Source: an uncultured Pseudomonadales bacterium
Lineage (GTDB): Bacteria > Patescibacteriota > Microgenomatia > UBA1400 > Chazhemtobacteraceae
Reading direction: 5' to 3'
DNA length: 64,000 nt
Assembly (NCBI GenBank): GCA_964422035.1
Contig: CAYQZQ010000001.1
Span: forward strand, 121,013 to 185,012
Shown: in pieces, positions 13,960 to 44,148 of the stretch
How positions within the stretch are numbered: the first letter of the stretch is position 1
Layout of the letters: each line of letters begins with the position of its first letter
Made by a program: the position numbers and the translations under genes
The notes under the pieces: generated by a model
Seen by the model: only the letters and a program-made list of their open reading frames with translations
Databases searched by the model: none
What the model was told of the DNA's origin: nothing

Positions 13960-13977
13960 TTAACTATATTTAAGATA

Positions 13978-15027: not shown

Positions 15028-15028
15028 T

Positions 15029-16249
15029 ATGGCAACACAACAAAAAAAACAGTATGAGTATAAAGCTAGAAAAGAAGATGGGGCGGTGGCAACAGGAAGT
15101 GTTGAGGCTGTTAGTGAAGAGCAAGCGGTGAGGATGATTAGAGCTCGTGGGTGGCTTTTAGTTTCAATTAAAGAAAAGAAGGAGGGTGATCTTTCTCAGT
15201 TATTGCAAAAGTTTGAGAAAGTTAAAAGTGATGATGTGGTGGGTTTTACTCGCCAGTTGTCAACTATGGTTGGTGCAGGCTTGCCTTTAACTGAAGCCTT
15301 AAGCATTTTGGAGGTGCAGAGCAGTCAGGCGATGAGTAGATTGGTGTCTGAGATAAGGCAGGAGGTTGAGGCAGGAAATTCCTTGTCAGATGCTCTTGAA
15401 GAAGCTGGCAGCGATGTTTTTTCCAAGGTGTATATAGCTCTTGTAAGGGCAGGTGAATCAGCTGGTGTTTTAGATGAAATATTGATGAGGTTGGCTAATA
15501 ATATGGAGAAACAGAGAGAGTTTAAACAAAATATTAAAGGAGCAATGATCTATCCGATTATTGTTTTGGTTGGTATGGTTGTTGTTGGTATTATAATGAT
15601 GATTTTTGTGGTTCCTAAAATGACAGCTATGTACAAGGATTTTGGAGCTACACTCCCCTTACCTACTCAGATCTTGATTGGACTGAGTGATTTTCTAGTA
15701 AATTTTTGGTACATACTTTTTATATTGGTTGGAGGGGTTGCTTATTTTGTGTATAAGTGGTCAAAGACAGAAGTGGGGGCTTTATTAATTGAGAAAGCAA
15801 TTTTTGATATTCCAATAATTGGTCCTTTACGTAAAAAGGTCATTTTGGCAGAGTTTGCTAGAACAATGAGTTTATTAATCGGGGCTGGAATTTCTATTTT
15901 GGAGGCATTGCGTATTGTTTCTGATGCTGTTGGTAGCAAGATTATTAAAATGAGACTTGAAGAGGCTGCTAGTGAAGTAGAAAAAGGAAGGCCTTTGGGA
16001 ATTGTGTTGGCGAAATTTGAGGAGTTTCCACCGATTTTTCCTCAAATGTTGTCTGTGGGAGAACAAACTGGTCAGGTGTCGGAGATTCTAACTAGGATTG
16101 CTGATTATTTTGAGCAGGAGAGTGAGGTGGGAGTGAATGCGCTAGCGACTGCAATTGAGCCTATTATTATTGTAATCATGGGAATTGGTGTCTTGTTTTT
16201 AGTAATGGCTGTTATCATGCCTATCTATAACTTGACCAGTCAGTTTTAA
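15029..16249 (+). CDS. pilC: type IV pilus platform protein PilC (GspF family)
   Basis: Two GspF repeats, each with TM segments. 406 aa. Confidence 0.9.
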   Translation: MATQQKKQYEYKARKEDGAVATGSVEAVSEEQAVRMIRARGWLLVSIKEKKEGDLSQLLQKFEKVKSDDVVGFTRQLSTMVGAGLPLTEALSILEVQSSQAMSRLVSEIRQEVEAGNSLSDALEEAGSDVFSKVYIALVRAGESAGVLDEILMRLANNMEKQREFKQNIKGAMIYPIIVLVGMVVVGIIMMIFVVPKMTAMYKDFGATLPLPTQILIGLSDFLVNFWYILFILVGGVAYFVYKWSKTEVGALLIEKAIFDIPIIGPLRKKVILAEFARTMSLLIGAGISILEALRIVSDAVGSKIIKMRLEEAASEVEKGRPLGIVLAKFEEFPPIFPQMLSVGEQTGQVSEILTRIADYFEQESEVGVNALATAIEPIIIVIMGIGVLFLVMAVIMPIYNLTSQF

Positions 16250-16318
16250 GGACTTGACAAGGGCACTTAGGTGCATCATAGTTAAGATATAATAAATATT
16301 TAGTTGTACCTGCCTCAA

Positions 16319-16870
16319 ATGAAAAATAAAAAAGGTTTTACGTTAATTGAGCTTTTAATTGTTATTGGAATTTTAGGAATTTTAGCAACAGGACTTTTAG
16401 CTGCTGTTGATCCATTTGAACAACTTAAGAAGGCTAGAGATACAAATACCAGGAATGCAGCAGTTGAGATGCATAATGGTTTTATTAGGTATTACGCAAC
16501 ACACGGTGCTTTGCCTTGGGATGACAGCGGTGCAGGTACTGATTGTACTGACAATTTGGCTGATATTAGAAGTACGTCCACTGAGACTTCTGTGTCTGAT
16601 ATTTCAGACTGTGTGCAGGAGTTGATAGACGATGGTGAACTCAAAGAAGATTTTATTGGAGCCTTAGGAGACGATGCGGATGATATTATTATTACCTCAA
16701 CAAGTGGTGTTGCTGTCTCTGTTTGTTTTTCACCTGAGAGTAAGGCAATCTTTAGTGATGTAGCTACAAAATATAATGTATATGGAGAAGATGTAAGTGC
16801 AACAACGTGTGAGAGTACTGCTAAGGATTCATTAACTCCAGGAACAACTTGCTATTGGTGTGCTAAGTAA
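16319..16870 (+). CDS. type IV (major?) pilin with class III signal peptide
   Basis: MKNKKGFTLIELLIVIGILGILA prepilin leader with cleavage after G and conserved E5. C-terminal Cys pair. Start moved to the Met internal to the track ORF. Confidence 0.8.
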   Translation: MKNKKGFTLIELLIVIGILGILATGLLAAVDPFEQLKKARDTNTRNAAVEMHNGFIRYYATHGALPWDDSGAGTDCTDNLADIRSTSTETSVSDISDCVQELIDDGELKEDFIGALGDDADDIIITSTSGVAVSVCFSPESKAIFSDVATKYNVYGEDVSATTCESTAKDSLTPGTTCYWCAK

Positions 16871-16946
16871 AGAGATTTAAATTAAAAAGAAGAAACAGTC
16901 AGTATTTAACTGGCTGTTTTTTTATGATTGATGATAAGATGGCTTT

Positions 16947-17747
16947 ATGATGATAGGATTATGGTTGTTTATCATTGGAGTAGTAATAGGAAGTTTTTTA
17001 AACGTTGTAGTTTATAGAACTGTGTATGACAAGTCGCCTCTTGAGGGAAGATCAAAGTGTCCTGAGTGTGAAGAAAAAATATCATGGAAGCACAACATTC
17101 CCCTACTCTCTTATGTATTGCTTAAAGGCAGATGTGCTCACTGTAACTCAAAGATTTCTTTACAGTATCCGGTGGTTGAGTTATTGTCTGGTCTGCTATT
17201 TGTATGGTGGTATGTAGTTGGGTGGAGCTTTTTTCAGTTAGTCGAGACTCCTCTAATTTGGATACAGCCGATTTTTTGGCTAGGTGTAGGGATAGCTTTG
17301 CTTTTGGTGACTGTGTTTGATTTTAAGTATGGGATTATTCCAAACGGCTTAAATGTTGCTTTGTTTGTATGGGTTATGGTGTATCGGTTAGGGTTGGTTG
17401 GTATGGGAAGAATGCAGACAAGAGATTTTCTACTGGCTTTGTTATCCAGCGGTGTATTAGCAGCTTTTTTCTACTTTTTGTATAGGATTACTAAAAGACA
17501 GGGTTTTGGGTTTGGTGATGTTAAGCTGGCTCCTAGTTTGGGATTGATCTTGGGATGGCCCAAGATACTAGTGGGTGTGATGGCGTCTTTTGTAATAGGT
17601 GGAGTTGTGGCTGTTGTTTTAATGATTTTAGGCAAAAAGAAGATGAAGGAGACAATCGTGTTTGGTCCCTTTCTAACTTTGGGAACCTTGATTTCTTTAT
17701 GGTGGGGTGATTATATTTGGAGTTGGTACATGACTATGCTTAAATGA
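16947..17747 (+). CDS. pilD: prepilin peptidase PilD (A24 family)
   Basis: CPECEEKI...CAHCNSKIS zinc motif and FGFGDVKL active-site region. Polytopic. Confidence 0.9.
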   Translation: MMIGLWLFIIGVVIGSFLNVVVYRTVYDKSPLEGRSKCPECEEKISWKHNIPLLSYVLLKGRCAHCNSKISLQYPVVELLSGLLFVWWYVVGWSFFQLVETPLIWIQPIFWLGVGIALLLVTVFDFKYGIIPNGLNVALFVWVMVYRLGLVGMGRMQTRDFLLALLSSGVLAAFFYFLYRITKRQGFGFGDVKLAPSLGLILGWPKILVGVMASFVIGGVVAVVLMILGKKKMKETIVFGPFLTLGTLISLWWGDYIWSWYMTMLK

Positions 17748-18280
17748 TAATAAGAATGAGGGACAAACAAGTTAGAGGTTTTACATTAATGGAGATACTT
17801 ATTGCAATGGCAATTATAGGTATTTTGGCTAGTGTGGGATTTGGTTCATACATTAGAAGCTTAAAAAAAGGTCGAGATGCACAACGAAAATCTGATCTGA
17901 ATCAGGTTCAAAGTGCACTGGAGGCTTATATGAGCGATTTTCAGGTGTATCCGGGTTGTAATTCGGAAGGTAAGATTGTTGGTTGTAGTGATGGAGATGC
18001 TGATTGTGATTGGGGTGATTCATTTGTTAGAAATGTGGGAGATACCACGAAAACATATATGAGTAGGTTGCCTGAGGATCCTGTGTCTGGAGCAGATTAT
18101 GTTTATGTTTCGGATGGAGATAAGTATCAATTGTTTTCTGTTTTGGAAAATGATCAGGATCCTGATTATGTGGATAGCTATACGACTGTATGTGGCGAAG
18201 AGGCTTGTAAGTATGGAGTGCCTAGTCCAAACAATAACATGAGTGCTGAAATGACAATTGCAGACGATTGTTCGTTGTAA
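17744..18280 (+). CDS. pilin-like protein with prepilin leader
   Basis: RGFTLMEILIAMAIIGILA prepilin leader. Confidence 0.75.
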   Translation: MIIRMRDKQVRGFTLMEILIAMAIIGILASVGFGSYIRSLKKGRDAQRKSDLNQVQSALEAYMSDFQVYPGCNSEGKIVGCSDGDADCDWGDSFVRNVGDTTKTYMSRLPEDPVSGADYVYVSDGDKYQLFSVLENDQDPDYVDSYTTVCGEEACKYGVPSPNNNMSAEMTIADDCSL

Positions 18281-18309
18281 TTATCAAATTGATGGGATAG
18301 TATTAAATT

Positions 18310-18753
18310 ATGATTAGTCAGGAAAAGAAGGGGTTTACATTAATTGAGCTTTTAGTGGTAGTGGCGATAATTGGAACATTGACGGGTTTGGCTACTGTTA
18401 ATTTTCAGGATGCAAGAGAGCGAGCAAGAGACGCTCAGAGAAAAGGAGACGTGAAGCAGATTCAGAAGGCTATGGAGCTTTATAAGAATGATCAGTCAGC
18501 TCAACACTACCCGGATGATAATGATCCTGTCGAGACTTGGAGAGAAAAGTTGGAATCAGGAGGATATATGAATAATGTACCCAATGACCCCAAGGCTAGG
18601 GCAGCAGAAAGTAGTTGGCCTGATTACGAATATGATCGCAGTAGTGTTTTGGAGTACACCTTGGTGGCTTGTTTGGAGAATCCTGCAGATCTAGATATAG
18701 ATGAGACAAATACTTGCGATAGTGGCTATAGTTATACATTAACCCAACCTTAA
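18310..18753 (+). CDS. pilin/pseudopilin-like protein
   Basis: KGFTLIELLVVVAIIGTL leader followed by GspG-like QRKGDVKQI. Confidence 0.75.
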   Translation: MISQEKKGFTLIELLVVVAIIGTLTGLATVNFQDARERARDAQRKGDVKQIQKAMELYKNDQSAQHYPDDNDPVETWREKLESGGYMNNVPNDPKARAAESSWPDYEYDRSSVLEYTLVACLENPADLDIDETNTCDSGYSYTLTQP

Positions 18754-18755
18754 AA

Positions 18756-19181
18756 ATGGAAAACAAACAAAGAGGATTTACATTACTTGAGCTTTTAGTA
18801 GTTATTGGAATTATTGGAATATTAGTAGGTATCGGGACTATTTCGTACCAGTCTGCACAAGAAAAAAGTCGTGACTCTAGACGGCGTGGAGATTTAAAGG
18901 CGATTTCAAATGCTTTAGAGCAGTACTATGCTGAAAATACTGGCAGTTATCCTCAAGATATAGCTTGCACCGGATATGTTGATTATTTATCTGGTCCCGA
19001 ACCTACTGATCCAGTGACTGGTGATACTTATCTTGATGATGGCGACTGCGTTGTTGATGGAAGCAGTTATTGTGTGTGCGTAGAACTTGAAGGAACTGGG
19101 ACTGGGAATGCTTATGATGCAAGTTGTACCTGGACGGGCTCGGGAGACAAAGATTATTTTTGTGTTGAAAACCTACAATGA
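18756..19181 (+). CDS. pilin/pseudopilin-like protein
   Basis: RGFTLLELLVVIGIIGIL leader, RRRGDLKAI, and several Cys. Confidence 0.75.
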   Translation: MENKQRGFTLLELLVVIGIIGILVGIGTISYQSAQEKSRDSRRRGDLKAISNALEQYYAENTGSYPQDIACTGYVDYLSGPEPTDPVTGDTYLDDGDCVVDGSSYCVCVELEGTGTGNAYDASCTWTGSGDKDYFCVENLQ

Positions 19182-19579
19182 TAAATAATCGTAAAGGTTT
19201 TACGTTCATCGAGCTTTTGGTGGTGGTAACTATAATTGGGGTGTTGGCGGCTGTGGGTATGGTTAGTTATACGAGTACGAACAAAAGTGCTCGAGACTCA
19301 AAGAGGCTGGCTGATCTGGAACAAATAAGGACAGCATTGGAGATTTGTAGATCTGAGGCCGGTAGTTATCCAGCTGATATTTCAAGCGGAGTAGTTTGTG
19401 GTGGTGACTCTTATTTGTCTCCCCTACCCAGTGATCCCTGGGATAGTAAGACAGAGTATGGTTATAGTTATACTCAAAATTCTGAAACAAGTTATGATAT
19501 TTGTGCAACTTTGGAAAATGATGATAAATGCACAGGAACAATAAATGGAGATGGAGAATGTTGCCTAAGCAATCCTTAA
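19178..19579 (+). CDS. pilin/pseudopilin-like protein
   Basis: KGFTFIELLVVVTIIGVLA leader. Confidence 0.75.
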   Translation: MINNRKGFTFIELLVVVTIIGVLAAVGMVSYTSTNKSARDSKRLADLEQIRTALEICRSEAGSYPADISSGVVCGGDSYLSPLPSDPWDSKTEYGYSYTQNSETSYDICATLENDDKCTGTINGDGECCLSNP

Positions 19580-20037
19580 AGACCAAGGCTTTTACTTTAA
19601 TTGAAATAATGGTGGTTATATCGATAATTGCTCTGTTGAGCGCAGGATCTTTGGTGGCATTTAATAACTTAAGAGAGAAAAGGTTGGTTAGAGGTGATGC
19701 AGATTTGGTAATACAGGAGTTGAAGAAGGCAAGAACAAAGGCAAGATCGGGTGAAAAACCTGAAGCTTGTCTTTCAGATTTAGAAGGATACGAAGTAGAA
19801 GTGTCTGGACCCTCTGTGATTTTAAGAGTAAGTTGCGGAAATACGATAGAGCATAATACAGTACAGATGCAAAACAGTTCAATTGTAGGCACTGAAGAGG
19901 TTGAGTTCGATGCGTTGGGAGGAGCCACTCCAGCAACTATTTATGTATGTGGAAGCAATAGTCTATATGGATATGCAATTGAGGTGACGGGCTCAGGCTT
20001 GATTGAGTCACCTGTAGAATACAGTGGTTGTAGTTAA
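19558..20037 (+). CDS. pilin-like protein
   Basis: KAFTLIEIMVVISIIALLSA leader. Start assigned to the internal Met. Overlaps the previous gene by 22 nt. Confidence 0.65.
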   Translation: MLPKQSLKTKAFTLIEIMVVISIIALLSAGSLVAFNNLREKRLVRGDADLVIQELKKARTKARSGEKPEACLSDLEGYEVEVSGPSVILRVSCGNTIEHNTVQMQNSSIVGTEEVEFDALGGATPATIYVCGSNSLYGYAIEVTGSGLIESPVEYSGCS

Positions 20038-20052
20038 AACTTTTAAGATATT

Positions 20053-20463
20053 ATGAAGTTATTTAAAGACATTAACGGCCAGACTTTGATAGAAGTGATA
20101 GTAGCTGTGGCGGTGATAAGTTTGGTTTTAACAGGGATTGTCATAGCGGTAACTAGTGGATTGAAGACTTCAAGAATATCTAGAGAAAGATTTGAGGCAA
20201 GGAGGATTGTTGATTCTGAGTTGGAAGACATACGAAGTGAAAGAAATAACGATCCTGGTAGTTTTTTTGTAAGTGAAAATGCTGGAGATACCATTGAGGT
20301 AGGTCCTGATGTGGTAGAAGGCAACTCGACTAGTTATGAGAAAACAGTGACTTATGATTATGCTGCTGATGGCAGAGAGGTTGAAGTGACGGTTGCAGTG
20401 GAATGGGGGGGTGAAGAATCATATTCTGTAAGCCAGACAACGATATTAACTCTTTGGCAGTAG
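20053..20463 (+). CDS. minor-pilin-like protein with atypical leader (GQTLIEV)
   Basis: NGQTLIEVIVAVAVISLVL resembles PilV/GspI-type minor pilin leaders. Confidence 0.55.
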   Translation: MKLFKDINGQTLIEVIVAVAVISLVLTGIVIAVTSGLKTSRISRERFEARRIVDSELEDIRSERNNDPGSFFVSENAGDTIEVGPDVVEGNSTSYEKTVTYDYAADGREVEVTVAVEWGGEESYSVSQTTILTLWQ

Positions 20464-20487
20464 GTTAATTATTGATATGATGAGTTT

Positions 20488-20961
20488 ATGAAGGGGTTTA
20501 CATTAATGGAATTGGTAGTGGTGGTTGCAGTTATGGCGGTGGCTTTAGCAGCGACAGCTGGTTTATTTACTCAATCTTTTAGGAGTGGTAGTAAGACTGA
20601 GAAAATAGTTTTGGTAGAAGAGAACATGAGACAATCAATGGATATTATGGAGAGAATGATTAGAAATGCTTCTAAAATAGAAAGTGTTGGTGGAGGTGTG
20701 TGCCCAGGGTCAGGGCAGAGCTTGACGATATTAAATACTGATAATGATACGACTATTTTTTCTTTAAGTGATGGGCAGATTGCTTCTAACGGGGCTGCCT
20801 TAAGTGGAGATAAGGTTGTGGTAGAGAGTTTGCAGTTTCAGTGTATTAGGAATAGCGGGGCGCCTGATAAAGTTGAGATTAATACGCAGGCGAGAGCAGA
20901 TGTGGATGAGGAGGGTGATATAGTAGAATATACTAGAAATGTTGATTTAAGAAACTATTAA
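20488..20961 (+). CDS. pilin-like protein
   Basis: MKGFTLMELVVVVAVMAV leader. Confidence 0.7.
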   Translation: MKGFTLMELVVVVAVMAVALAATAGLFTQSFRSGSKTEKIVLVEENMRQSMDIMERMIRNASKIESVGGGVCPGSGQSLTILNTDNDTTIFSLSDGQIASNGAALSGDKVVVESLQFQCIRNSGAPDKVEINTQARADVDEEGDIVEYTRNVDLRNY

Positions 20962-20970
20962 AGATTAAAT

Positions 20971-21762
20971 GTGTATATGGGTATAAAAAGAGATGAGTCA
21001 GGGCAGGTAGCAGTCATTGTGGCTTTGAGTATGGCAGTTATGGCCACTATTACTCTATCTGTGGTGAGCAGATCAGTAGTAGATTTAAGGTTAACTGATA
21101 TTGAGGAGGAGTCCGCGTCAGCATTGAAAGCAGCTGAGGCTGGTCTTGAAAAAGCTCTGAAAGGTCTTGAGTCTGATGATTTTAGTAGTAGCGATTTTCC
21201 AGGTGCGTCTTATCAGGTTGATGTAGAAGACAAAGGTGAGACAGGTTTTGTTACCGCGTCGGCGATAAGTAGAGGCGAGGTTGTTGAGGTTGAGATGGGA
21301 GGGGCTAATCCGCCATCTAGTATAAGAGTTTATTGGGGAGATAGTAATGATGACAACCAGTCCCCTACTGGCGCAGTTGAGATTTTAAAATACAGCAAGG
21401 TTTCTGATAGTGATTATAGAGTTGAGAGATTTGTTTATGATCCAGATGCTACTAGGAGGTCGTCTAATAATTTTTCTGCTCCACTTTCAATCAATCCGGG
21501 AGGTTTTCAGAGTGTTGATTTTACTGCTAGGTCAGAGATTCTTACAGATGCTGATGATGTTTTGATTAGGATAAGAACTTTTTATAATCTGGCAACTTTG
21601 GGGGTTGAGCCTTTGGGAGGGGTGCTACCTCAGCAGATATATGAAGCGGTGGCAACAGGTGAGGCGGCAGATGATGTGCAAAGGAAAGTCAGGGCGGTAA
21701 GAGGTAGTCCTCAATTGCCGGCAGCTTTTGATGCGGCTTTATATTCAGGAGGTAGTTTGTAG
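20971..21762 (+). CDS. PilX_N-like pilus-associated protein
   Basis: ESGQVAVIVALSMAVMATITLSV hydrophobic N-terminus typical of PilX N-terminal domains. Lies inside the pilus locus. Confidence 0.45.
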   Translation: MYMGIKRDESGQVAVIVALSMAVMATITLSVVSRSVVDLRLTDIEEESASALKAAEAGLEKALKGLESDDFSSSDFPGASYQVDVEDKGETGFVTASAISRGEVVEVEMGGANPPSSIRVYWGDSNDDNQSPTGAVEILKYSKVSDSDYRVERFVYDPDATRRSSNNFSAPLSINPGGFQSVDFTARSEILTDADDVLIRIRTFYNLATLGVEPLGGVLPQQIYEAVATGEAADDVQRKVRAVRGSPQLPAAFDAALYSGGSL

Positions 21763-21785
21763 TTGTTTAATGTTATGATAATGTT

Positions 21786-22778
21786 ATGTCTGCCCAGCTA
21801 GGAATCGATATTGGTACAGCAAATATAAAACTTGTTTCTCTAAGTGGTAACAAGATTAATGGTGCCCAAGTGATTAGTAACCCTTTGGGCAAGATTAAAC
21901 TGGAAACTGAATCTGAAGTTGTAAAGATGGTTGAGGAGATGAAGAAGTCCTTATTTTCTGAGATAAAATTGTCGGGACAAAGCACTGCTGTGGTGGTGCC
22001 TGAAAGTGTTGTGTATAGTCGAGTCATCAGCATGCCTGTGTTGACTGACGCGGAATTATCAAACGCTATAAAGTGGGAAGCGGAACAATATGTACCCCAA
22101 CCGTTGGAGGAAGTTGAGCTGTCATGGCAGGTTGTAGATAAGCCTCAAAAAACAGAAGGCAAGATGAAGGTATATTTAGTGGCGATTGATAAAAAGGTTG
22201 TAGGTGGTTTAATAAATATGTTTTCAAGATTAGGGTTGGAGCCGACTAGTATTAAGCCTGAGTTTGTTGCAGCCTCATCTTTAATTAGAAGTAAGGGAGA
22301 CGTGATGTTGTCTACCATGGGTGCAAGTACAGTTACAAGTGGTGTATTTAGGGATGGTAATTTGCTTTTCATATATCAATTTGGAAGTGGTGGAACAGCA
22401 ATGACAAGGGCAATATCTTCAGGTTTGCAGCTTAATACCTCTCAAGCTGAAGAGTACAAACGTTCATATGGTGTGAGAAAAGATGTTTTGGAGGGAAAGT
22501 TATATCAGGCAATGAGGCCCGTAACTGAGGGAGTTATATCGGAGCTTAAGAAGGTAGTTGGTTATTACAATCAAAATTTTGCAGATAAGGGCCAGTTGGT
22601 TAATCTTTCAATTTGTGGAGGTATGGCGCTAACACCGGGGATAGTGCAGTTGTTGGGCTCTGAGTTAAATGTTGAGACAGAGCTTTTAAGTAGTTTTGGT
22701 GATGTAGAGTTTGAGGTTCAAATAGATAACAGATTACGAGTAGTGTACGCTCCAGCAATTGGTGCTGTAAAAAGTTAA
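21786..22778 (+). CDS. pilM: type IV pilus assembly protein PilM (actin-like ATPase fold)
   Basis: LGIDIGTANIKLV N-terminus and ICGGMA motif. 330 aa. Confidence 0.85.
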   Translation: MSAQLGIDIGTANIKLVSLSGNKINGAQVISNPLGKIKLETESEVVKMVEEMKKSLFSEIKLSGQSTAVVVPESVVYSRVISMPVLTDAELSNAIKWEAEQYVPQPLEEVELSWQVVDKPQKTEGKMKVYLVAIDKKVVGGLINMFSRLGLEPTSIKPEFVAASSLIRSKGDVMLSTMGASTVTSGVFRDGNLLFIYQFGSGGTAMTRAISSGLQLNTSQAEEYKRSYGVRKDVLEGKLYQAMRPVTEGVISELKKVVGYYNQNFADKGQLVNLSICGGMALTPGIVQLLGSELNVETELLSSFGDVEFEVQIDNRLRVVYAPAIGAVKS

Positions 22779-22780
22779 AT

Positions 22781-23329
22781 ATGGCAGATTTAAATGTTGA
22801 TTTATTGTCAGGTAAGGCAAGAGGAATAGCTCGGACGAACAGAATTGTGAAGTGGCAAAAAAAGGCTGTTTGGATAATATTAGGTTTATTTCTAGTTATT
22901 TCGTTCGGTGTTTTTGCTTGGTGGGGGTTTGAAGTTAATAGAAAATCTAAAATTGAAAAGAGGCAGAGAAGGTTGTTGGCAGAGCTTGAAGATAGATCAG
23001 ATCTTCAAGGTCGATATATGTTGACTAAAGAAGTTTTATTTCAAGCGGATCAAATACTGGGGGTAAGAAAAGATTTTGAAGGAGTCTTGTCTGATGCATA
23101 TTCTCTACTTCCCCCTGGATCAGTCGCAAGAGGTATAAATTTTGGTGATAATAATGTTTCTTTGCAGGTAAGTAATGATGGAGTTCAAGAGTATGCAAGC
23201 TTAATAAGAAATTTAGAGGTAGTTGAGGATCACGATCGTTTTCAGTCTGCTACAGTTGTATCTTCAACTAGATTACGAGATGGGAGTTGGACAGCAAATT
23301 TAGTATTTAATTTCAAAAAAGCTTTATGA
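22781..23329 (+). CDS. pilN: PilN-like bitopic pilus assembly protein
   Basis: Single N-terminal TM helix. Position directly after pilM. 182 aa. Confidence 0.55.
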   Translation: MADLNVDLLSGKARGIARTNRIVKWQKKAVWIILGLFLVISFGVFAWWGFEVNRKSKIEKRQRRLLAELEDRSDLQGRYMLTKEVLFQADQILGVRKDFEGVLSDAYSLLPPGSVARGINFGDNNVSLQVSNDGVQEYASLIRNLEVVEDHDRFQSATVVSSTRLRDGSWTANLVFNFKKAL

Positions 23330-24108
23330 GCGAAGATGGAAAGAAAAAATCTAATTTAGGAGGAGAAATATCTAGTTTGGGCGGTGTTGAGCTTGGTTTT
23401 GCGGTTCACAAAAAGGTCCTTGAGTGGTCTGGTTATATCGCTTTGGAAATATTTGTAGTTATGATGATTGGTTTATTGTTTTTGAAGCCTCAAGTAGTCA
23501 AACTGAATAAAATTAGAAAAGAAACGGCTGGACAAGTTGAAAAAATGAACAAGATGGAAGACAAGATAAAAGCTTTAGATGATTTTGCATTAGAGTTTGG
23601 TCAGTATCAAAGCTTGGTGACCAATATTATTCCTCAAGACAATAATTTAGGTGTTATTTTGTCGGGTATTAGAGAATCATCTAATGATGCAGGTATAGAG
23701 TTGGTTAGCTATTCAGTTGAAAATTTTAAAGATAGAGATGATGATGAATTGTCATCTAAGGGGTTGGAAAAATCTGGTTTAGAGGTGCATGTAAGCGGAA
23801 GTAATAGTCAAATTCAGAGCTTTCTTGATGAACTTAATAATTCTCTACCACTTAAAAATGTTGAAGAATTTGGTGTTAGCAGGCAAAATATTAGTGAACA
23901 AGTTTCAAATAATTTGAGGGTTCGTTTGAGGCTGTTAACATATACTCTTACAAAGGATTTTGAAAAGACTAGTATTAATCAAACATTGAGAATATTTGAT
24001 CAGAAAGATCGAGAACTTCTAACAGAACTTGAAACATATGATACCTGGCAAGTTGAGGCTCAACCTGTAGAACAATCTGGTAGGAACGATAACTTATTCG
24101 GTTTGTAA
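23326..24108 (+). CDS. pilO: PilO-like bitopic pilus assembly protein
   Basis: Single TM helix, coiled coil. Translationally coupled to pilN by a 4-nt overlap. Confidence 0.5.
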   Translation: MSEDGKKKSNLGGEISSLGGVELGFAVHKKVLEWSGYIALEIFVVMMIGLLFLKPQVVKLNKIRKETAGQVEKMNKMEDKIKALDDFALEFGQYQSLVTNIIPQDNNLGVILSGIRESSNDAGIELVSYSVENFKDRDDDELSSKGLEKSGLEVHVSGSNSQIQSFLDELNNSLPLKNVEEFGVSRQNISEQVSNNLRVRLRLLTYTLTKDFEKTSINQTLRIFDQKDRELLTELETYDTWQVEAQPVEQSGRNDNLFGL

Positions 24109-39467: not shown

Positions 39468-40085
39468 TTATCGAGGAATTGAAAGTATCCAGCCTGGTTC
39501 GATAAGTCCAGGGTTTGGTCCAATAAGTTCTATGTTGGTTTGGTAGATCTGTGTCCATTGGTAGCCGTCGCCGTATGCTCTGACAGAGATTTCCCAAAGA
39601 TTATCACCTTCTTTCACGGTGTACTCGTCTCTTTCTATGCTTGGGCTATCCATTTCATGATCAGTTTTATCCATGGCAACAGTAGGTTGCATGACTTCGG
39701 ATTTAGGAATGATTAACTCTTGTCCTACGGCAAGTTGACTGGGGTTATTTAGGTTGTTTGCTTTGGCAATATCTACCCAGTTGTATCCTGAGTTGTAGTA
39801 ATCTTCAGCAATTTTCCAGAGATGATCACCTTCTTTTACTTCGTAAGTTGTTGGTAGGCCTTGAGGTATTTTTTTGCCTTCTTCTTCAACAATTTTTGGT
39901 TGGCCGGGAACAGGAGTTGTTTTTTCTTGAGCAGCTTGGTCAGTAATTTGTCCCCTATCTATAGACTTAAAATAATTAAATACAAGTAATCCGATAACAA
40001 CGACTACAATTCCTCCTAAAATCGTGCTGATTGTATTCTCGTTTAGTTTGATTTTTTTGAGGAGGTTTTTGATTTTTTGTTGCAT
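39468..40085 (-). CDS. membrane-anchored protein with two LysM peptidoglycan-binding domains
   Basis: N-terminal TM helix. Two repeats of Y.VK.GD.LW.IA...G..W..I...N. Confidence 0.8.
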   Translation of the reverse strand: MQQKIKNLLKKIKLNENTISTILGGIVVVVIGLLVFNYFKSIDRGQITDQAAQEKTTPVPGQPKIVEEEGKKIPQGLPTTYEVKEGDHLWKIAEDYYNSGYNWVDIAKANNLNNPSQLAVGQELIIPKSEVMQPTVAMDKTDHEMDSPSIERDEYTVKEGDNLWEISVRAYGDGYQWTQIYQTNIELIGPNPGLIEPGWILSIPR

Positions 40086-40231
40086 TTTAAGACCTAATTA
40101 ATATTTTTATAGAACTTCTTACACGCATCCTATACATAATGTTATCGCGAGTCAAGTATGAGTTTGTGATAAACAAAAAAAGCGCTCAACGAGGATGATA
40201 ATAATACTTATCGAACGCTTAAATATGGGGT

Positions 40232-40282
40232 GGGGCTGACGGGATTCGAACTCGCGGCCTTCTCCGTGACAGGGAGACACTC
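40232..40282 (-). repeat. 51-bp partial copy (2 mismatches) of the 3' two-thirds of tRNA-Asp; att-like direct repeat
   Basis: ggggctgacggga(t)tcgaac(t)cgcggccttctccgtgacagggagacactc matches 42233-42283 in the same orientation, then diverges. Confidence 0.8.
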
Positions 40283-42231
40283 AATATTTATGTGAGTGTT
40301 TAGCCAGTATTTTTTTTATTCAGTTTTAATTGAATCTTCAATCTTTTTAATCTCTTCTGAAGAAAAACCAAAGTTATCTTTTAACCCCCTTTTTATATTT
40401 TCTATCCACTCCTCTTTACTGCTATCCACTGCTTTTTGAAGTGTTTCTCTAGAGAATCTTTTAATCATCTCTAGCTTTTCATTAGCAGAGACACCGAAAG
40501 AATCAGCTAAGCTGTCAAACTCTCTTCTTATACCCTCATTCGGAGTTGATAGTATTACAGCTTTAATGTAACCATATGTTGGCACATTAATGAACTTAGC
40601 AAGGAGTGAAACAATATCTAGATTTCTAGAAACTTCAGATTGTGGAATCATATGAAATAACTTAACTGCCTTTTCTAGGTTTTCTAGTGCAGTCTCGTGA
40701 TACTTAAGATAAATTTTCTCAGCCTCTTCTGTCTTGTTTCGTTTTTCTATTTCAGACTTGAGTAAAGTCGTTATTTCTTTCATTTTTTCAAATTCTTCAT
40801 TATCTGGGGCAATTAATTCAGCGTCCAGCCTTAGGAAATAAGACTCTAGAGCCTGATCTAAGACGTTTATAATATTCTCATCAGTAATAGACCTTTCTAT
40901 CATTGAAACATCTCCACTATAAAAATATCTTTCACTAAACTCATTTTCATCTGTCCATCTCAATTCTTCTAATTTTAGAACCGAGGACTCTTTAAGTCTT
41001 TGTATAATTTTGTCCGATGTTTTCTTTCTTCCTATTCTTCCACCCCTTCTTTCTTTACCAAGGAAATTAATCAACAAATCAGATCCTGTGACAATATCAT
41101 CAAATTGTCTTTTTCTTTTTGAGGCAAACTCTTTACTATTTTTTTTCTCTAACTCTGACTGTTTTTTGGGATAAGAGAACTCGATAGGAACAGACTTGAC
41201 CTTCTTATCAAGACTTAGGGCAACATATATCGGAAAATAAACAGCATTAGAGTATGCTTCTGGCTTTACTTTACCCCAGAAAGGACTATCTTCAGGTATC
41301 TCAAATGTCTCTCCAAAAAGACTTTTTAATTCAGAAGTATTTTTAATAGCTCTCGTTCCACCAAACAAGTCTAGTACTGAATCTCTTTTTTTTCGTAAAC
41401 CAGCCTCAACAAGCATGCGGTGTATTTTAAGGTTGGCTTTTCTTTCTGAAACCGCTTGGAATTTTGGGTAACCACGAAAGTCATTGTACTGATCTCCCAA
41501 CTCCTTAACTCTAATACCCCTGTCTGGAATAACGATATCAGCTTTGCCTTCACTTATCGGTTGAGTGATATTGAAAATCTCATCCACCAATTGAGTTTTT
41601 TCTATTTCTACCTGAATGAGAGAGCCTTTTTTTCCAATGGATCTGAGATATTCACTACTAGAAATGATGTCCGTGATATTTTTAATAGACTCAATTCTAG
41701 CTTGACTGTAACCTCTCTTTTTTTGATCTAAAAGCCATATTAATCCGGGCATTTTGTCTCTTTTTTCACGACTTTCTTTTCTTGTTTCTAAGAGATTGAC
41801 AGAATCTTCAACTGTGCCCGGTTGTCTTATCGTAATCTCATCAGAAAACCTTCGAGGGTTTATCTCACCGACCATTTGAGTGAAGAGAGGAGAACTACCA
41901 CCATCAACAACGGAAATATTAATTCCCTTCTTATTTAATCTCTCAATAGACTCTAATGCCAAGCTACCCCTAACACTATCAGAAACTTCTTTATTCTTGG
42001 GGTCAAATTCAGGAAAATATGTGGTAGCGATAACCATAACCGACTGTTCAGGTTTAAGTTTTTCGTTTTCTCCATTTTTTTCTGCTTCTTGATCCTCTCG
42101 TATTAAAAGTTCATATCTTTTACTAAGATTTTTGTGATAATTTTCAATATTTTGATTTTGGACTCTTTTCTCTTCCATAACTACACACATTATATATTTT
42201 TATATCAGGAAGCATTTCAGGCAGACATGTG
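40283..42231 (-). mobile_element. candidate integrated islet (about 1.95 kb) in the 3' end of tRNA-Asp, carrying a single cargo gene and no integrase
   Basis: Bounded by the intact tRNA-Asp (42232-42306) and its 51-bp direct-repeat fragment (40232-40282). Confidence 0.45.
40316..42190 (-). CDS. hypothetical 624-aa protein; N-terminal region weakly GT-A glycosyltransferase-like, C-terminal helical region of unknown function
   Basis: VMVIATTYFPEF...INISVVDGGSS resembles the VxVVxPxxNEE...VVDDGSTD pattern of GT2/GT81 enzymes. No canonical DxD is obvious. The rest is K/E-rich helical sequence. Confidence 0.55.
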   Translation of the reverse strand: MCVVMEEKRVQNQNIENYHKNLSKRYELLIREDQEAEKNGENEKLKPEQSVMVIATTYFPEFDPKNKEVSDSVRGSLALESIERLNKKGINISVVDGGSSPLFTQMVGEINPRRFSDEITIRQPGTVEDSVNLLETRKESREKRDKMPGLIWLLDQKKRGYSQARIESIKNITDIISSSEYLRSIGKKGSLIQVEIEKTQLVDEIFNITQPISEGKADIVIPDRGIRVKELGDQYNDFRGYPKFQAVSERKANLKIHRMLVEAGLRKKRDSVLDLFGGTRAIKNTSELKSLFGETFEIPEDSPFWGKVKPEAYSNAVYFPIYVALSLDKKVKSVPIEFSYPKKQSELEKKNSKEFASKRKRQFDDIVTGSDLLINFLGKERRGGRIGRKKTSDKIIQRLKESSVLKLEELRWTDENEFSERYFYSGDVSMIERSITDENIINVLDQALESYFLRLDAELIAPDNEEFEKMKEITTLLKSEIEKRNKTEEAEKIYLKYHETALENLEKAVKLFHMIPQSEVSRNLDIVSLLAKFINVPTYGYIKAVILSTPNEGIRREFDSLADSFGVSANEKLEMIKRFSRETLQKAVDSSKEEWIENIKRGLKDNFGFSSEEIKKIEDSIKTE

Positions 42232-42306
42232 CGGGGCTGACGGGACTCGAACCCGCGGCCTTCTCCGTGACAGGGAGACACTCTAAACCAACTGAGCTAC
42301 AGCCCC
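42232..42306 (-). tRNA. tRNA-Asp (anticodon GTC)
   Basis: GGGGCTG/CAGCCCC acceptor stem, anticodon loop CTGTCAC, GGTTCGAGTCC T-arm. Confidence 0.9.
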
Positions 42307-42372: not shown

Positions 42373-44148
42373 ATGGATACAAATAAACATATGACCAACC
42401 AAGATATAGCTCATTTGTTGAGGTCTATGGCGGCTGTTTATGAGGTTAAAGATGAAGATTTTTTCAGAGCTCGAGCTTATGAGAATGCGGCAGCTAGTAT
42501 AGAAAAAGCTGCTTCTGATCTTAGAGCCATATGGCAAGAAGGTAATTTGCAGGAGTTGTCTGGAATAGGTTCAAGTATTGAGAACCATTTGGATGAGTTG
42601 TTTAAAACTGGGAAGGTTAAACATTTTCAAGATGAGACAAAAGACGTGCCGCAAGGCATGTTTGAGCTATTGAAGATAGATGGAGTGGGCCCAAAGTCTG
42701 CATATAAACTTGCTAGTGAGTTTGGAATTGAAGATGAGGGTAAAGCTGTTGATAAGTTGAAAGAAGCTGCTGAGAATAATCAAGTTGCCAAACTAGAAGG
42801 TTTTGGAGAAGATTCTCAGGAGAAAATTTTGGACTCAATAAAAAAGCAGATTAAGATTAAAGATAGATTGCTTTTGCCTCAGGCAATGAATTTAGCTGAA
42901 GAAGTAATTGAATATATTAAGCAAAGCCATGATGTAGTTGAAGTTGAGGTATTGGGTAGTTTGAGGCGTAGGGCCTCAACCGTGGGAGATATTGATGTTG
43001 CAGTGGCTACAGAAAGAGCTGAGAAAGTTATGGATTATGTGCTTAAGTTTGAGGGTATAAAAAAGGTATTATCTTCAGGTTCTAAAACCACCATGTTTAT
43101 CCACAAATCTGGCAGGCAGATAGATATTAAGACTCAAGAACCGGACAAGTGGGGCTCTATGCTGCAGCACTATACGGGTAGTAAGAATCACAATATTCAT
43201 CTTAGGACGATTGCTAAGGAAAATGGGCTTTCTTTATCTGAGCATGGAATTAAAAGGGGTGAGAAATTGACTAAGTATGATAATGAAAAGGATTTTTATA
43301 AGGCTTTAGGCATGAATTATATTCCTGCTGAGTTACGTGAAGACAGAGGAGAGATTGAAGCAGCTTTGAAAGGAAACCTGCCTAAACTAGTTCAAATTGA
43401 TGATATCAAAGGAGATTTACAAGTTCACTCGAATTATGATTTGAAGAGCAGTCATGATGTAGGCAGTAGTTCTTTAGTTGATCTTTTGAAAAAAGCTGGT
43501 GAGTTGGGATATGAGTATTTGGGGATTACTGATCACAACCCAAAGCAGTCGGGATTGAGCAAAAGTGAGAGAAAAGAGATTTTACAGGCTAGGAATAAGC
43601 ATTTTGATGAAGAATATAGTTCGTATGAAAACTCAGTGAAAAAAACCAGTGTCAAATTGCTTAAAGGACTTGAGGTTGATATTAAGCCTGACGGAGAGTT
43701 AGCTTTAGAAGATGAAAACTTAGAACTTCTGGATTATGTAGTTGCTTCGGTTCACTCCAGTTTTAGGCAGGACAAAAAGGAAGCGACAAAAAGGGTACTA
43801 AATGGGCTATCTCATCCTAAAATTAAGATATTTGCACACCCTACTGGGCGGATGTTGGGTAAGCGAGAAGGGTTAGATTACGACTGGAATGAGATATTTG
43901 AGCATTGTCTGAAAAATAAAATATGGATTGAAGTAAATGCGTCTCCTAAAAGACTTGATTTGGCAGATAGTTTAATTGGAGATGCGATAGAAAAAGGAGT
44001 CAAAATTGTTATTAATACAGATGCCCATGATAGTAGCGGGTTGGAGTTTATGAAGTATGGTGTGTGGACAGCCAGAAGAGGTTGGGCTGAAAGAAAAAAT
44101 GTTATTAATACTATTGGATGGAAAGAATTAAAAAAATTAATATATTAG
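42373..44148 (+). CDS. polX: DNA polymerase X family protein with C-terminal PHP phosphoesterase domain
   Basis: Pol beta-like N-terminus with helix-hairpin-helix. Catalytic GSLRRRASTVGDIDV. PHP motifs HSNYDL and ITDHN. Confidence 0.85.
   Translation: MDTNKHMTNQDIAHLLRSMAAVYEVKDEDFFRARAYENAAASIEKAASDLRAIWQEGNLQELSGIGSSIENHLDELFKTGKVKHFQDETKDVPQGMFELLKIDGVGPKSAYKLASEFGIEDEGKAVDKLKEAAENNQVAKLEGFGEDSQEKILDSIKKQIKIKDRLLLPQAMNLAEEVIEYIKQSHDVVEVEVLGSLRRRASTVGDIDVAVATERAEKVMDYVLKFEGIKKVLSSGSKTTMFIHKSGRQIDIKTQEPDKWGSMLQHYTGSKNHNIHLRTIAKENGLSLSEHGIKRGEKLTKYDNEKDFYKALGMNYIPAELREDRGEIEAALKGNLPKLVQIDDIKGDLQVHSNYDLKSSHDVGSSSLVDLLKKAGELGYEYLGITDHNPKQSGLSKSERKEILQARNKHFDEEYSSYENSVKKTSVKLLKGLEVDIKPDGELALEDENLELLDYVVASVHSSFRQDKKEATKRVLNGLSHPKIKIFAHPTGRMLGKREGLDYDWNEIFEHCLKNKIWIEVNASPKRLDLADSLIGDAIEKGVKIVINTDAHDSSGLEFMKYGVWTARRGWAERKNVINTIGWKELKKLIY

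What the first reader, a model, noticed from the sequence alone, without database searches (positions are those of the whole stretch)
40232..42306. tRNA-Asp with a 51-bp direct-repeat copy of its 3' two-thirds bounding a roughly 2 kb single-gene insertion
The intact tRNA-Asp(GTC) at 42232-42306 on the minus strand is followed downstream at 40232-40282 by a 51-nt same-orientation copy with 2 substitutions. The copy covers the discriminator-proximal acceptor arm, T-arm, variable loop and anticodon arm. This is the textbook attL/attR footprint of a tyrosine-integrase element inserted into a tRNA 3' end. The roughly 1.95 kb between the repeats holds one large ORF and no integrase, so it is either a decayed islet or cargo mobilised in trans. 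The surrounding genome is otherwise tightly packed housekeeping DNA, which makes this the clearest accessory insertion in the window.
Basis: partly seen in the sequence, partly recalled or inferred. Interest (0 to 1): 0.8.

Follow-up and report, generated by a model that had tools for sequence, protein, structure and literature searches.

The report
Integrase-less gene cassette inserted in tRNA-Asp
A 2-kb piece of foreign DNA carrying one sugar-transferase-like gene has been spliced precisely into the end of a tRNA-Asp gene of a tiny-genome (Patescibacteria/CPR) bacterium; it is an ordinary kind of genomic islet, except that it and several sister islets share conserved ends and none carries a recombinase of its own.

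Summary

**The structure.** tRNA-Asp(GTC) lies at 42231-42306 (-). It is followed by a 1,948-bp insert with one gene. Then comes a same-orientation copy of the tRNA's last 53 nt at 40230-40282, matching at 50 of 53 positions.

**The empty site.** The closest relative found has the same neighbourhood with tRNA-Asp directly followed by the LysM gene. Its flanking proteins are 83-95% identical to those of the window. The DNA after the window's fragment is orthologous to the DNA after that relative's intact tRNA, including the tRNA's terminator hairpin.

**The same target in other lineages.**
- In a more distant lineage, two strains 99.9% identical downstream of the site differ by a 2.2-kb islet bounded by exact 53-nt repeats.
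- The repeat always starts at the same tRNA nucleotide.
- Islets with unrelated cargo share a right-end motif (TATACTGG..ATCAACACATAACATATT) and a left-end motif.

**The cargo.** It is a GT-A-fold glycosyltransferase-like protein, not a recombinase. It is 74% identical between lineages whose flanking proteins are only 44-57% identical, which points to horizontal transfer.

**What is missing.** No islet encodes an integrase. The only tyrosine recombinase in the window is Xer-like and 35 kb away.

**Verdict.** This is a site-specific, trans-mobilised (CIME-like) cassette at a tRNA hotspot. It is a modest variant of a known kind.

The parts
42231..42306 (-). Intact tRNA-Asp(GTC) gene. This is attL: the regenerated target.
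   Evidence: ARAGORN. Rfam RF00005 at 70.6 bits. Orthologous to the tRNA-Asp of the empty-site relative L013, 6944-7021.
42231..42283 (-). 53-nt core repeat inside the tRNA. It runs from the 3' strand of the D stem through the anticodon arm, variable loop, T arm and acceptor 3' strand, plus 2 nt.
   Evidence: The same block (ARAGORN positions 24-76) is repeated in relatives L001-L006, L012, L015 and L018.
42179..42230 (-). Left arm of the islet. It includes the left-end motif AATGTGTGTA (+ strand 42182-42191) just before the start codon.
   Evidence: The motif A[AT]T[AG]TGTGTA occurs in L001, L002 and L022 only at islet left ends. In the window it occurs at 42182, plus one other site at 46213. 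It is absent from the empty-site locus L013. Alignments A4 and A7. There is no hairpin or terminator between the tRNA and the ORF (z -0.28).
40316..42190 (-). Cargo gene, 624 aa (probable start at 42178, giving 620 aa). The N-terminal ~370 aa form a GT-A-fold glycosyltransferase-like domain; the C-terminal part is an alpha-helical domain.
40283..40315 (-). Right arm of the islet (aaaaaaaatactggctaaacactcacataaatatt), directly abutting the displaced fragment.
   Evidence: Aligns with the right ends of islets that carry unrelated cargo, consensus TATACTGGA..ATCAACACATAACATATT. The motif CACATA-N0-3-ATATT occurs only at islet right ends.
40230..40282 (-). Displaced 3' fragment of tRNA-Asp (attR core). 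50 of 53 positions match, with three G>A changes, one of which breaks the T stem.
   Evidence: Rfam tRNA 24.1 bits, below threshold.
40173..40220 (-). Hairpin plus U-run: the native terminator of tRNA-Asp, now displaced to the far side of the islet.
   Evidence: RNA fold -12.8 kcal/mol, z -4.5. The orthologous hairpin directly follows the intact tRNA in L013 (-16.2 kcal/mol, z -4.6) (alignment).
39468..40085 (-). LysM-domain gene: the conserved chromosomal flank on the attR side.
   Evidence: Pfam LysM 7e-24. 87% aa identity to the L013 orthologue.
42373..44148 (+). PolX (family X DNA polymerase with PHP domain): the conserved chromosomal flank on the attL side.
   Evidence: Pfam. 83% aa identity to P0013 in L013, which has the same synteny.

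Best explanation
This is a small integrative element, a single-gene 'islet', inserted by site-specific recombination into the 3' two-thirds of the chromosomal tRNA-Asp(GTC) gene of a Microgenomates-type Patescibacteria (CPR) bacterium.

**How it is built.** The element carried its own copy of the last 53 nt of the tRNA. Recombination within that shared block regenerated an intact tRNA on one side (attL, 42231-42306). It pushed the original 3' part of the tRNA, with the tRNA's terminator, 2 kb downstream (attR, 40230-40282). The cargo is one GT-A-fold glycosyltransferase-like gene. It has the same orientation as the tRNA and no terminator lies between them, so it is probably co-transcribed with the tRNA.

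**A family of such elements.** tRNA-Asp in this group of bacteria collects these cassettes in tandem, newest next to the tRNA. They carry unrelated cargo but share about 30-nt end motifs, and none has a recombinase gene. So they are most likely moved in trans by a tyrosine-type integrase encoded elsewhere. An alternative is that they are cis-mobilised next to a complete element, as CIMEs are.

**Shown:**
- the insertion relative to an empty site;
- reuse of the same tRNA nucleotide boundary in independent events;
- presence/absence polymorphism between near-identical strains;
- conserved ends;
- discordant similarity, which indicates horizontal transfer;
- a non-recombinase cargo.

**Inferred:**
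- the recombinase class, and a crossover centred on the anticodon loop (from the extent of the identity block);
- action in trans;
- read-through expression.
For: 1. **Repeat.** 53 nt, 50 of 53 matches, 0 expected by chance.
2. **Empty site.** The closest relatives L013 and L014 read PolX, tRNA-Asp, LysM without the gene or the fragment. Both flanks are 85-87% identical to the window. The terminator hairpin follows the tRNA there and follows the fragment here.
3. **Occupied/empty pair for a sister islet.** L001 and L002 are 99.9% identical over 7,979 nt downstream of the site. L002 has an extra 2.2-kb islet between the tRNA and an exact 53-nt copy, followed by the same flank as in L001.
4. **Fixed boundary.** Every fragment starts at or within a few nt of the same tRNA position: position 24 in the window, L001-L006, L016 and L017, and 25-27 in the decayed L022 copies. 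This holds across the window, L001-L006, L012 and L015-L018.
5. **Conserved ends.** The end motifs are specific to islet ends, apart from one stray left-motif match in the window at 46213, and are absent from the empty site.
6. **Discordant similarity.** The cargo is 74% identical between the window and L001. The flanking proteins are less similar: LemA 57%, LysM 47%, PolX/PHP 44%. The closer relatives L013 and L020 lack the gene. No protein more than 74% identical to the cargo exists among the 5.8 billion non-redundant proteins searched.
7. **Same module in a third lineage.** In L022-L024 the gene is again bracketed by tRNA-Asp fragments and both motifs.
9. **Fit with known classes.** An identity block running from the anticodon arm to the 3' end is one of the two common attP classes of tRNA-targeting tyrosine integrases (Islander, PMC4383910; bioRxiv 10.1101/2020.11.02.365908).
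Against: - No integrase or other recombinase was found in the islet, in any sister islet, or within 6-10 kb of any related locus. This rests on Pfam, PHROGs and the precomputed Pfam calls, and on phmmer with the window's Xer-like protein against 950 ORF segments, which found only itself.
- The only tyrosine recombinase in the 64-kb window (5317-6267) looks like the housekeeping Xer.
- No free attP or circular form, and no parent element with an integrase, was found in viral, genome or metagenome scans.
- Nothing in the sequences locates the crossover point.
- The left-end motif overlaps a TATAAT-like box 10 nt before the start codon. It could be a promoter rather than a recombinase site.
- Base composition of the islet (GC 0.33-0.37) does not stand out from the flanks.
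Confidence: 0.85

Rival explanations
1. Decayed remnant of a once-complete integrative element (prophage, ICE or IME). That element entered tRNA-Asp with its own integrase and then lost everything except one cargo gene and its att sites. On this view it is a fossil that no longer moves.
For: There is no integrase in the islet. The fragment has accumulated 3 substitutions, one of which breaks the T stem. Tandem arrays with progressively decayed fragments exist in relatives. Decay to a CIME is the standard route described for such elements (PMC5704250).
Against: - At least five islets with unrelated cargo are all small and all lack an integrase, yet all keep the same end motifs.
- The same single-gene module, arms plus gene, is found in three diverged lineages. 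Its similarity (69-74% aa) is higher than that of the host flanks.
- A 2.2-kb integrase-less islet is polymorphic between strains that are 99.9% identical.

Independent decay to the same minimal architecture each time is less economical than mobility of the small units themselves.
Confidence: 0.25
2. Non-autonomous transposon, MITE-like or casposon-like. On this view the element is bounded by terminal inverted repeats, moved by a transposase or casposase in trans, and the tRNA-derived repeat is a target-site duplication.
For: The left and right end motifs are partly inverted copies of each other: AATATG.ATATGTGT against ACACATA.CATATT. The elements are small, lack any mobility gene, and stack at a tRNA 3' end. 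From my own knowledge, not tested here, casposons do the same.
Against: - The duplication is 53 nt and always starts at the same tRNA nucleotide. From my own knowledge, known transposase and casposase duplications are 2-15 bp.
- The left motif lies 25-45 nt away from the repeat and does not abut it.
- The duplicated block runs through the acceptor stem plus 2 nt, as needed to regenerate the gene. That is the signature of reciprocal site-specific recombination (PMC4383910).
- No transposase or Cas1 appears in any locus. The only hit is an rve_3 remnant in the unrelated locus L008.
Confidence: 0.05
3. Local tandem duplication. On this view the 53-nt copy is a degenerate tRNA pseudogene unrelated to any insertion, and the 624-aa gene is an ancestral resident that the closest relative lost.
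For: The islet's GC content is like that of the genome. The PolX-LysM interval is variable in more distant relatives that show no detectable fragments: L019, L020 and L021.
Against: - The flank after the fragment, and not the flank after the tRNA, is orthologous to the flank after the intact tRNA of the empty site, terminator included.
- The same boundary and arms recur around different cargo.
- Cargo similarity is discordant with host divergence.
- Loss in L013 would have to be precise to the nucleotide, which itself implies recombination between the repeats.
Confidence: 0.03

Closest known systems
tRNA-targeted genomic islands of the kind catalogued by Islander (tyrosine-integrase islands with an anticodon-centred attP)
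   Same: There is an intact tDNA plus a same-orientation displaced 3' fragment marking the two ends. The identity block runs from the anticodon arm to the end of the tRNA. An empty site exists in a relative. Tandem arrays have the newest element next to the tRNA.
   Different: There is no integrase gene inside the element, so Islander's own filter would reject it. It is also far smaller (1.95 kb, one gene) than typical islands. The host is a Patescibacteria genome of about 0.7 Mb.
CIMEs (cis-mobilizable elements) and accretion arrays at ICE/IME attachment sites (PMC5704250)
   Same: The element keeps attL and attR but has no integration or transfer genes. It is found in tandem accretion with other elements at the 3' end of a target gene.
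   Different: CIMEs are defined as decay products of ICEs or IMEs and are mobilised together with a neighbouring complete element. No complete element was seen at any of these loci. The units also look like a family of minimal cassettes with shared ends rather than random remnants.
Integron gene cassettes
   Same: These are single-gene or few-gene units without mobility genes. They are stacked in series at one recombination site with the newest nearest that site. Here the cargo is co-oriented with an upstream strong promoter, that of the tRNA gene, and each unit ends in a conserved recombination-site-like sequence.
   Different: There is no IntI gene and no attI or Pc platform next to the array. 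Each insertion duplicates 53 nt of the target, which integron attI x attC recombination does not do. No attC-type structure was tested or shown.
Mannosylglycerate synthase, mannosyl- and glucosyl-3-phosphoglycerate synthases, and other GT-A glycosyltransferases (for the cargo only)
   Different: Sequence identity to these enzymes is only 9-17%. The window protein gives no Pfam hit of its own. It has an extra C-terminal helical domain of about 250 aa that is present in only a handful of clusters. Donor and acceptor are unknown.

Membership tests
tRNA-integrated genomic island (Islander definition) | Intact tDNA plus a cognate tDNA fragment in the same orientation in the same replicon | tested here: met
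   tRNA-Asp at 42231-42306 (-) and a 53-nt fragment at 40230-40282 (-), 50 of 53 matches.
tRNA-integrated genomic island (Islander definition) | An integrase gene inside the interval | tested here: not met
   The single ORF has a GT-A fold and gives no Pfam, PHROG or NCBIfam recombinase hit.
tRNA-integrated genomic island (Islander definition) | An uninterrupted (empty) target in a related genome, with orthologous flanks | tested here: met
   L013 and L014 read PolX, tRNA-Asp, LysM, with flanks 85-87% identical in DNA. The L001/L002 pair shows the same for a sister islet.
tRNA-integrated genomic island (Islander definition) | Crossover at a defined sublocation (anticodon loop or T loop) catalysed by a tyrosine integrase | tested here: inconclusive
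   The identity block starts 5 nt before the anticodon stem and runs to the 3' end. This fits the anticodon-centred class. No sequence difference locates the crossover, and no integrase is known.
CIME (cis-mobilizable element) | Retains attL and attR but lacks integration and transfer genes | tested here: met
   Definition taken from PMC5704250.
CIME (cis-mobilizable element) | Derived by decay from an ICE or IME | tested here: inconclusive
   No ICE, IME or phage gene remnants appear in any islet. No parent element was found.
CIME (cis-mobilizable element) | Excises or transfers together with an adjacent functional element (accretion-mobilisation) | not testable with these tools
   This needs excision assays or read-level data. 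Tandem accretion itself is seen in L002 and L022.
Integron cassette array | An adjacent intI gene with attI and a Pc promoter | tested here: not met
   The neighbours are PolX, LemA, M48 and LysM. The only tyrosine recombinase in the window is Xer-like and lies at 5317-6267.
Integron cassette array | Cassettes end in attC sites, and insertion does not duplicate the target | tested here: not met
   Each unit ends in a 53-nt duplicate of the tRNA target.
TIR/TSD transposon (MITE or casposon type) | Terminal inverted repeats that directly abut a short target-site duplication | tested here: not met
   The duplication is 53 nt. The left motif lies 25-45 nt from it.
GT-A glycosyltransferase (cargo protein) | GT-A Rossmann-like fold | tested here: met
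GT-A glycosyltransferase (cargo protein) | Pfam PF00535 (Glycos_transf_2) at or above the gathering score | tested here: not met
   The window protein gives no hit. Seven of 11 homologues give weak hits, best E 1.9e-4. Some relatives of about 300 aa pass the threshold, with 26.5 and 32.2 bits against a cutoff of 23.3.
GT-A glycosyltransferase (cargo protein) | A metal-binding DXD motif and demonstrated transferase activity | not testable with these tools
   D96-G-G-S-S, E195-x-E197-K and D218 are invariant. Their roles are not established.

The most novel reading that the evidence does not exclude
tRNA-Asp in these Microgenomates acts as an integron-like capture platform. A family of minimal cassettes lacks any recombinase. 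Each cassette is defined only by an attP-like end of about 130 bp: the right arm, the 53-nt tRNA core and the left arm. The cassettes are serially inserted, exchanged between lineages and expressed by read-through from the tRNA promoter. The recombinase would be a single trans-acting enzyme encoded elsewhere, conceivably the genome's only Xer-like tyrosine recombinase. That would be a way for ultra-small genomes to keep a flexible gene pool without paying for a mobility gene in each element.
Probability: 0.15. Interest if true: 0.7.

Novelty: new variant of a known kind. Interest (0 to 1): 0.4.

Why it matters
Mobile elements of Patescibacteria (CPR) are poorly described. Standard island finders require an integrase gene inside the island, so they would skip this element.

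The locus gives a clean, sequence-level demonstration of site-specific gene gain at a tRNA gene in a genome of about 0.7 Mb. There is an empty site, an occupied site, and a presence/absence polymorphism between near-identical strains.

It also defines a small family of integrase-less cassettes with shared ends. These could be used as a search key to find the responsible recombinase.

The cargo is a divergent glycosyltransferase. Sister cassettes carry secreted or membrane proteins and a radical-SAM/SPASM peptide-maturation set. This fits cell-surface and accessory functions, and so this hotspot is one place where strain-level variation is generated in these episymbiotic bacteria.

In kind, however, it is a classical tRNA-targeted islet, and a specialist would not be greatly surprised.

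Tried and rejected
**Is the 624-aa protein a novel recombinase?** It sits next to attL, where integrases often sit. Rejected: it has a GT-A fold, and distant homologues in L007-L009 lie in other contexts with no tRNA-derived repeats.

**Searches for a parent element or a free attP:**
- Three viral-contig scans (full fragment, arm plus fragment, anticodon-arm half) gave 0 hits.
- The genome-contig scan gave only L012, a copy of the L001 type.
- The metagenome scan for arm plus fragment gave four short loci and no integrase.

**Other dead ends:**
- The orphan 333-aa ORF next to the attR of the L018 islet has no homologue other than itself and no Pfam or PHROG hit apart from a sub-threshold Pfam match (HPD, E 0.006).
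- tblastn of the cargo against the phage and plasmid collections found no match.
- Context look-ups for the window's own protein (P0001) and for its 48% paralogue in the same genome (P0005) returned 'not on record'. The paralogue is not in the window.
- phmmer with the window's Xer-like protein against all ORF segments of all loci found only itself.
- I tried to read the crossover position from the divergent fragments in L016 and L017. The differences are G>A and C>T decay and a deletion, so they are not informative.
- The afdb50 fold library was unavailable.
- Williams 2002 (PMC100330) is not held, so the sublocation classes are cited from Islander and a Klebsiella preprint instead.
- The promoter/terminator consensus scan found nothing above the shuffle expectation in the islet.
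Full report
**1. The observation**

ARAGORN finds tRNA-Asp(GTC) at 42231-42306 on the minus strand. Rfam's tRNA model scores it 70.6 bits. The repeat finder reports a 51-nt direct repeat, 40232-40282 against 42233-42283, at 96% identity and a spacing of 2001 bp.

A search that allows three mismatches finds only these two copies in 64 kb, with none in 100 shuffles. Read two bases further, the repeat is 53 nt (42231-42283 and 40230-40282) with 50 of 53 matches. All three differences are G>A, and one of them breaks the T stem.

The copy starts at the 3' strand of the D stem. It runs through the anticodon arm, the variable loop, the T arm and the acceptor 3' strand. On its own it scores 24.1 bits, below Rfam's threshold of 29, so it is a fragment.

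Between the repeats lie 1,948 bp with one long ORF, 40316-42190, of 624 aa.

**2. The surroundings and the organism**

- On the attL side are PolX, LemA and an M48 peptidase.
- On the attR side are a LysM protein, tRNA-Thr, an RNHCP protein, trigger factor, DUF5660, tRNA-Val and ThrRS.
- PolX homologues that carry a source name come from Microgenomates-group Patescibacteria: Woesebacteria, Shapirobacteria and Gottesmanbacteria.
- The window's own proteins are recorded on a 725,544-bp contig.
- GC content of the insert (0.33-0.37) does not stand out from the flanks.

**3. The empty site**

The closest PolX relative, P0013 (83% identity), lies on two contigs from two sequencing runs, L013 and L014. 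Gene order there is the same as in the window: ThrRS, DUF5665, tRNA-Val, DUF5660, trigger factor, RNHCP, tRNA-Thr, LysM, tRNA-Asp, PolX, LemA, M48.

The difference is that tRNA-Asp and LysM are only about 140 nt apart. There is no 624-aa gene and no tRNA fragment.

- Flanking proteins are 83-95% identical to the window's.
- A three-way alignment shows that the L013 sequence equals the window's attL side up to the end of the tRNA. From the core onward it equals the window's attR side.
- The flank after the window's fragment is 87% identical to the flank after L013's intact tRNA. The PolX-tRNA spacer is 85% identical.
- A hairpin followed by a U-run follows the intact tRNA in L013 (-16.2 kcal/mol, z -4.6). 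The orthologous hairpin follows the fragment in the window (-12.8 kcal/mol, z -4.5). No structure lies between the window's tRNA and the ORF (z -0.28).

An assembly collapse at the L013 site is unlikely. The same contig was assembled in two runs, and no protein more than 74% identical to the cargo exists among the 5.8 billion non-redundant proteins searched.

**4. The same target is used repeatedly in relatives**

The 74%-identical orthologue, P0002, lies at a tRNA-Asp locus in a more distant lineage, L001-L006.

- In L001 and L003 the tRNA is followed directly by the gene.
- In L002, L004, L005 and L006 a 2.2-kb islet with four small ORFs sits between the tRNA and an exact 53-nt copy of its 3' part. 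Those ORFs have signal-peptide or membrane-like N termini and give no recombinase hit. After the copy, the sequence continues exactly as it does after the tRNA in L001.
- L001 and L002 are 99.9% identical over 7,979 nt downstream of the site. The 2.2-kb islet is therefore a presence/absence polymorphism between near-identical strains.
- Further downstream a second, more decayed fragment closes another islet. That islet carries NUDIX, a radical-SAM/SPASM enzyme, a PqqD-like protein and a putative peptidase.
- Right after the 623-aa gene of L001 there is a strongly decayed fragment preceded by the same arm as in the window.
- In a third lineage, L022-L024 (P0003, 69% identical), the gene is again bracketed by two decayed tRNA-Asp fragments.
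- Every fragment starts at or within a few nt of the same tRNA position: position 24 in most copies, and 25-27 in the decayed L022 copies.

**5. Conserved ends**

The right ends of islets with unrelated cargo align to a common motif, TATACTGG(A)..ATCAACACATAACATATT. It lies 0-2 nt from the core. The islets concerned are the window, L002 islet 1, L017/L003, L018, L016, and the L001 and L022 GT-A cassettes.

The left ends carry A(A/T)T(A/G)TGTGTA 25-45 nt after the core.

In L001, L002 and L022 these two patterns occur only at islet ends. In the window they mark 40283 and 42182, with one stray match at 46213. The empty-site locus L013 has neither.

The two motifs are partly inverted copies of each other. 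They may be recombinase-binding sites. In the window, though, the left motif also overlaps a TATAAT box 10 nt before the start codon, so a promoter role cannot be excluded.

**6. The cargo**

The 624-aa protein gives no Pfam, PHROG or NCBIfam hit. It has eleven homologues. One of them is a 48% paralogue recorded on a contig of the same 725,544-bp length as the window's own proteins, and so probably in the same genome.

- Seven of the eleven give weak GT2 hits.
- An AlphaFold2 model built on the family alignment has a mean pLDDT of 78.8.
- A profile search of 1.84 billion cluster representatives finds 663 relatives. Most are proteins of about 300 aa, and some of them pass the GT2 threshold. The full-length form with the C-terminal helical domain is rare.
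- Distant family members sit among housekeeping genes without tRNA-derived repeats.

The protein is therefore cargo, not the recombinase.

**7. Horizontal transfer**

Between the window and L001 the cargo is 74% identical. The flanking proteins are much less similar: LemA 57%, LysM 47% and PolX/PHP 44%. The nearer relatives L013 (LemA 95%) and L020 (LemA 66%) lack the gene.

At the DNA level the cassette aligns at 77% over 2 kb. The flanks align at 66% or less, or not at all. The simplest reading is that the cassette moved between lineages and entered the same target in each.

**8. The missing recombinase**

No islet and no flank encodes a recognisable tyrosine or serine recombinase or a transposase.

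In the window I scanned 29 of the 56 ORFs of at least 140 aa with Pfam. These included all 14 of 224-420 aa, the usual size range of tyrosine recombinases. One tyrosine recombinase turned up, at 5317-6267, with the SAM-like plus catalytic architecture. It has Xer-type NCBIfam matches: XerC and XerD score about 255 bits, below their cutoffs, and XerA_Arch scores 227 against a cutoff of 220. It is 35 kb from the locus and is most simply the chromosome-dimer resolvase.

Scans for a parent element or a free attP found nothing. The cargo has no match in the phage or plasmid collections.

**9. Mechanism**

*Shown:*
- an insertion relative to an empty site;
- regeneration of the tRNA and displacement of its original 3' part together with its terminator;
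- reuse of one fixed boundary;
- tandem stacking with the least-decayed repeat next to the tRNA;
- recent polymorphism;
- conserved ends;
- discordant similarity.

*Inferred:*
- **Recombinase class.** The event is reciprocal site-specific recombination of the kind catalysed by tyrosine integrases. In that reaction the element's own copy of the tRNA 3' part restores the gene (Islander, PMC4383910).
- **Crossover position.** The identity block runs from the anticodon arm to the 3' end. This corresponds to the anticodon-centred class of attachment sites.
- **Action in trans.** The enzyme acts in trans, or the units are carried along by a complete neighbour, as described for CIMEs (PMC5704250).
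- **Expression.** The cargo is co-transcribed with the tRNA.

**10. Comparison and verdict**

In kind this is a tRNA-targeted genomic islet. It fails one defining filter of Islander-type islands, the presence of an internal integrase. It meets the descriptive definition of a CIME, but there is no evidence of descent from an ICE or IME.

It resembles integron cassettes in logic: minimal units without a mobility gene, stacked at one site downstream of a strong promoter. It does not resemble them in mechanism, because the target is duplicated and there is no intI.

A transposon-type explanation is disfavoured by the 53-nt duplication and by the spacing of the left motif.

I found no paper describing such cassettes in Patescibacteria in one full-text search. 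That is weak evidence of novelty.

I rate the finding a new variant of a known kind, of moderate interest.

Noticed in passing
window 5317-6267 (+): The only tyrosine recombinase found among the 29 window ORFs scanned with Pfam. It is 316 aa with Phage_int_SAM_1 plus Phage_integrase domains. Its NCBIfam matches are Xer-type: XerC and XerD about 255 bits, below their cutoffs, and XerA_Arch 227 bits against a cutoff of 220. It is probably the dimer resolvase. Whether it acts on the tRNA-Asp cassettes is untested.
   Followed up: partly
window 12178-24108 (+): A type IV pilus / T2SS-like gene cluster: T2SSE ATPase 13978-15027, T2SSF 15029-16249, prepilin peptidase 16947-17747, PilM 21786-22778. 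From my own knowledge this is typical of CPR bacteria.
   Followed up: no
window 1981-2697 (-): A 238-aa protein that combines TPR repeats with a weak HIRAN-domain hit, an unusual pairing.
   Followed up: no
L001 8300-11106: The islet next to the GT-A cassette in the related lineage carries a NUDIX hydrolase, a 52-aa ORF, a radical-SAM/SPASM enzyme, a PqqD-like protein and a DUF5700-like putative peptidase. This looks like a small RiPP-type peptide-maturation set carried as island cargo.
   Followed up: partly
L018 386-2117 (Ga0307992_1038399): Another islet variant has the canonical right arm in front of the second tRNA-Asp fragment. It holds an orphan 333-aa ORF, whose only homologue among the 5.8 billion non-redundant proteins searched is itself, plus a DUF5659 protein. 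The contig is too short to see the rest.
   Followed up: partly
L001 vs L002, around the tRNA-Asp: Identity between the two strains jumps from 95.2% upstream of the tRNA to 99.9% downstream. L001 has a PHP-only 284-aa remnant of PolX between LemA and the tRNA, and L002 lacks it. The tRNA therefore seems to be a recombination boundary between strain backgrounds.
   Followed up: no
L019, L020, L021 (PolX relatives at 53-58% identity): The PolX-LysM interval is variable across the wider family. L019 has a GT2 gene and no tRNA-Asp. L020 has SHMT with the tRNA-Asp inverted. L021 has six genes, including ClpP-like and NosD-like ones. None has a detectable tRNA fragment. These are either older events whose traces have been erased, or a different process.
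   Followed up: partly
L012 (CAZBRK010000015.1): The only GTDB-representative contig with the 53-nt core is labelled 'uncultured Pseudomonadales'. It carries two copies 5,287 bp apart, the same spacing as the two copies in the Patescibacteria locus L001. The contig is probably mis-binned.
   Followed up: no
window 40230-40282; L001 11181-11233; L017 314-365: Every substitution in the displaced tRNA fragments is a G>A or C>T transition: 3, 2 and about 10 respectively. This is a clean read-out of AT-biased mutational decay in these genomes.
   Followed up: no
not in the window (protein P0005): A 48%-identical paralogue of the cargo gene is recorded on a contig of the same 725,544-bp length, so probably in the same genome. 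Its position and context could not be retrieved, so it is unknown whether it also sits in a tRNA-bounded cassette.
   Followed up: partly
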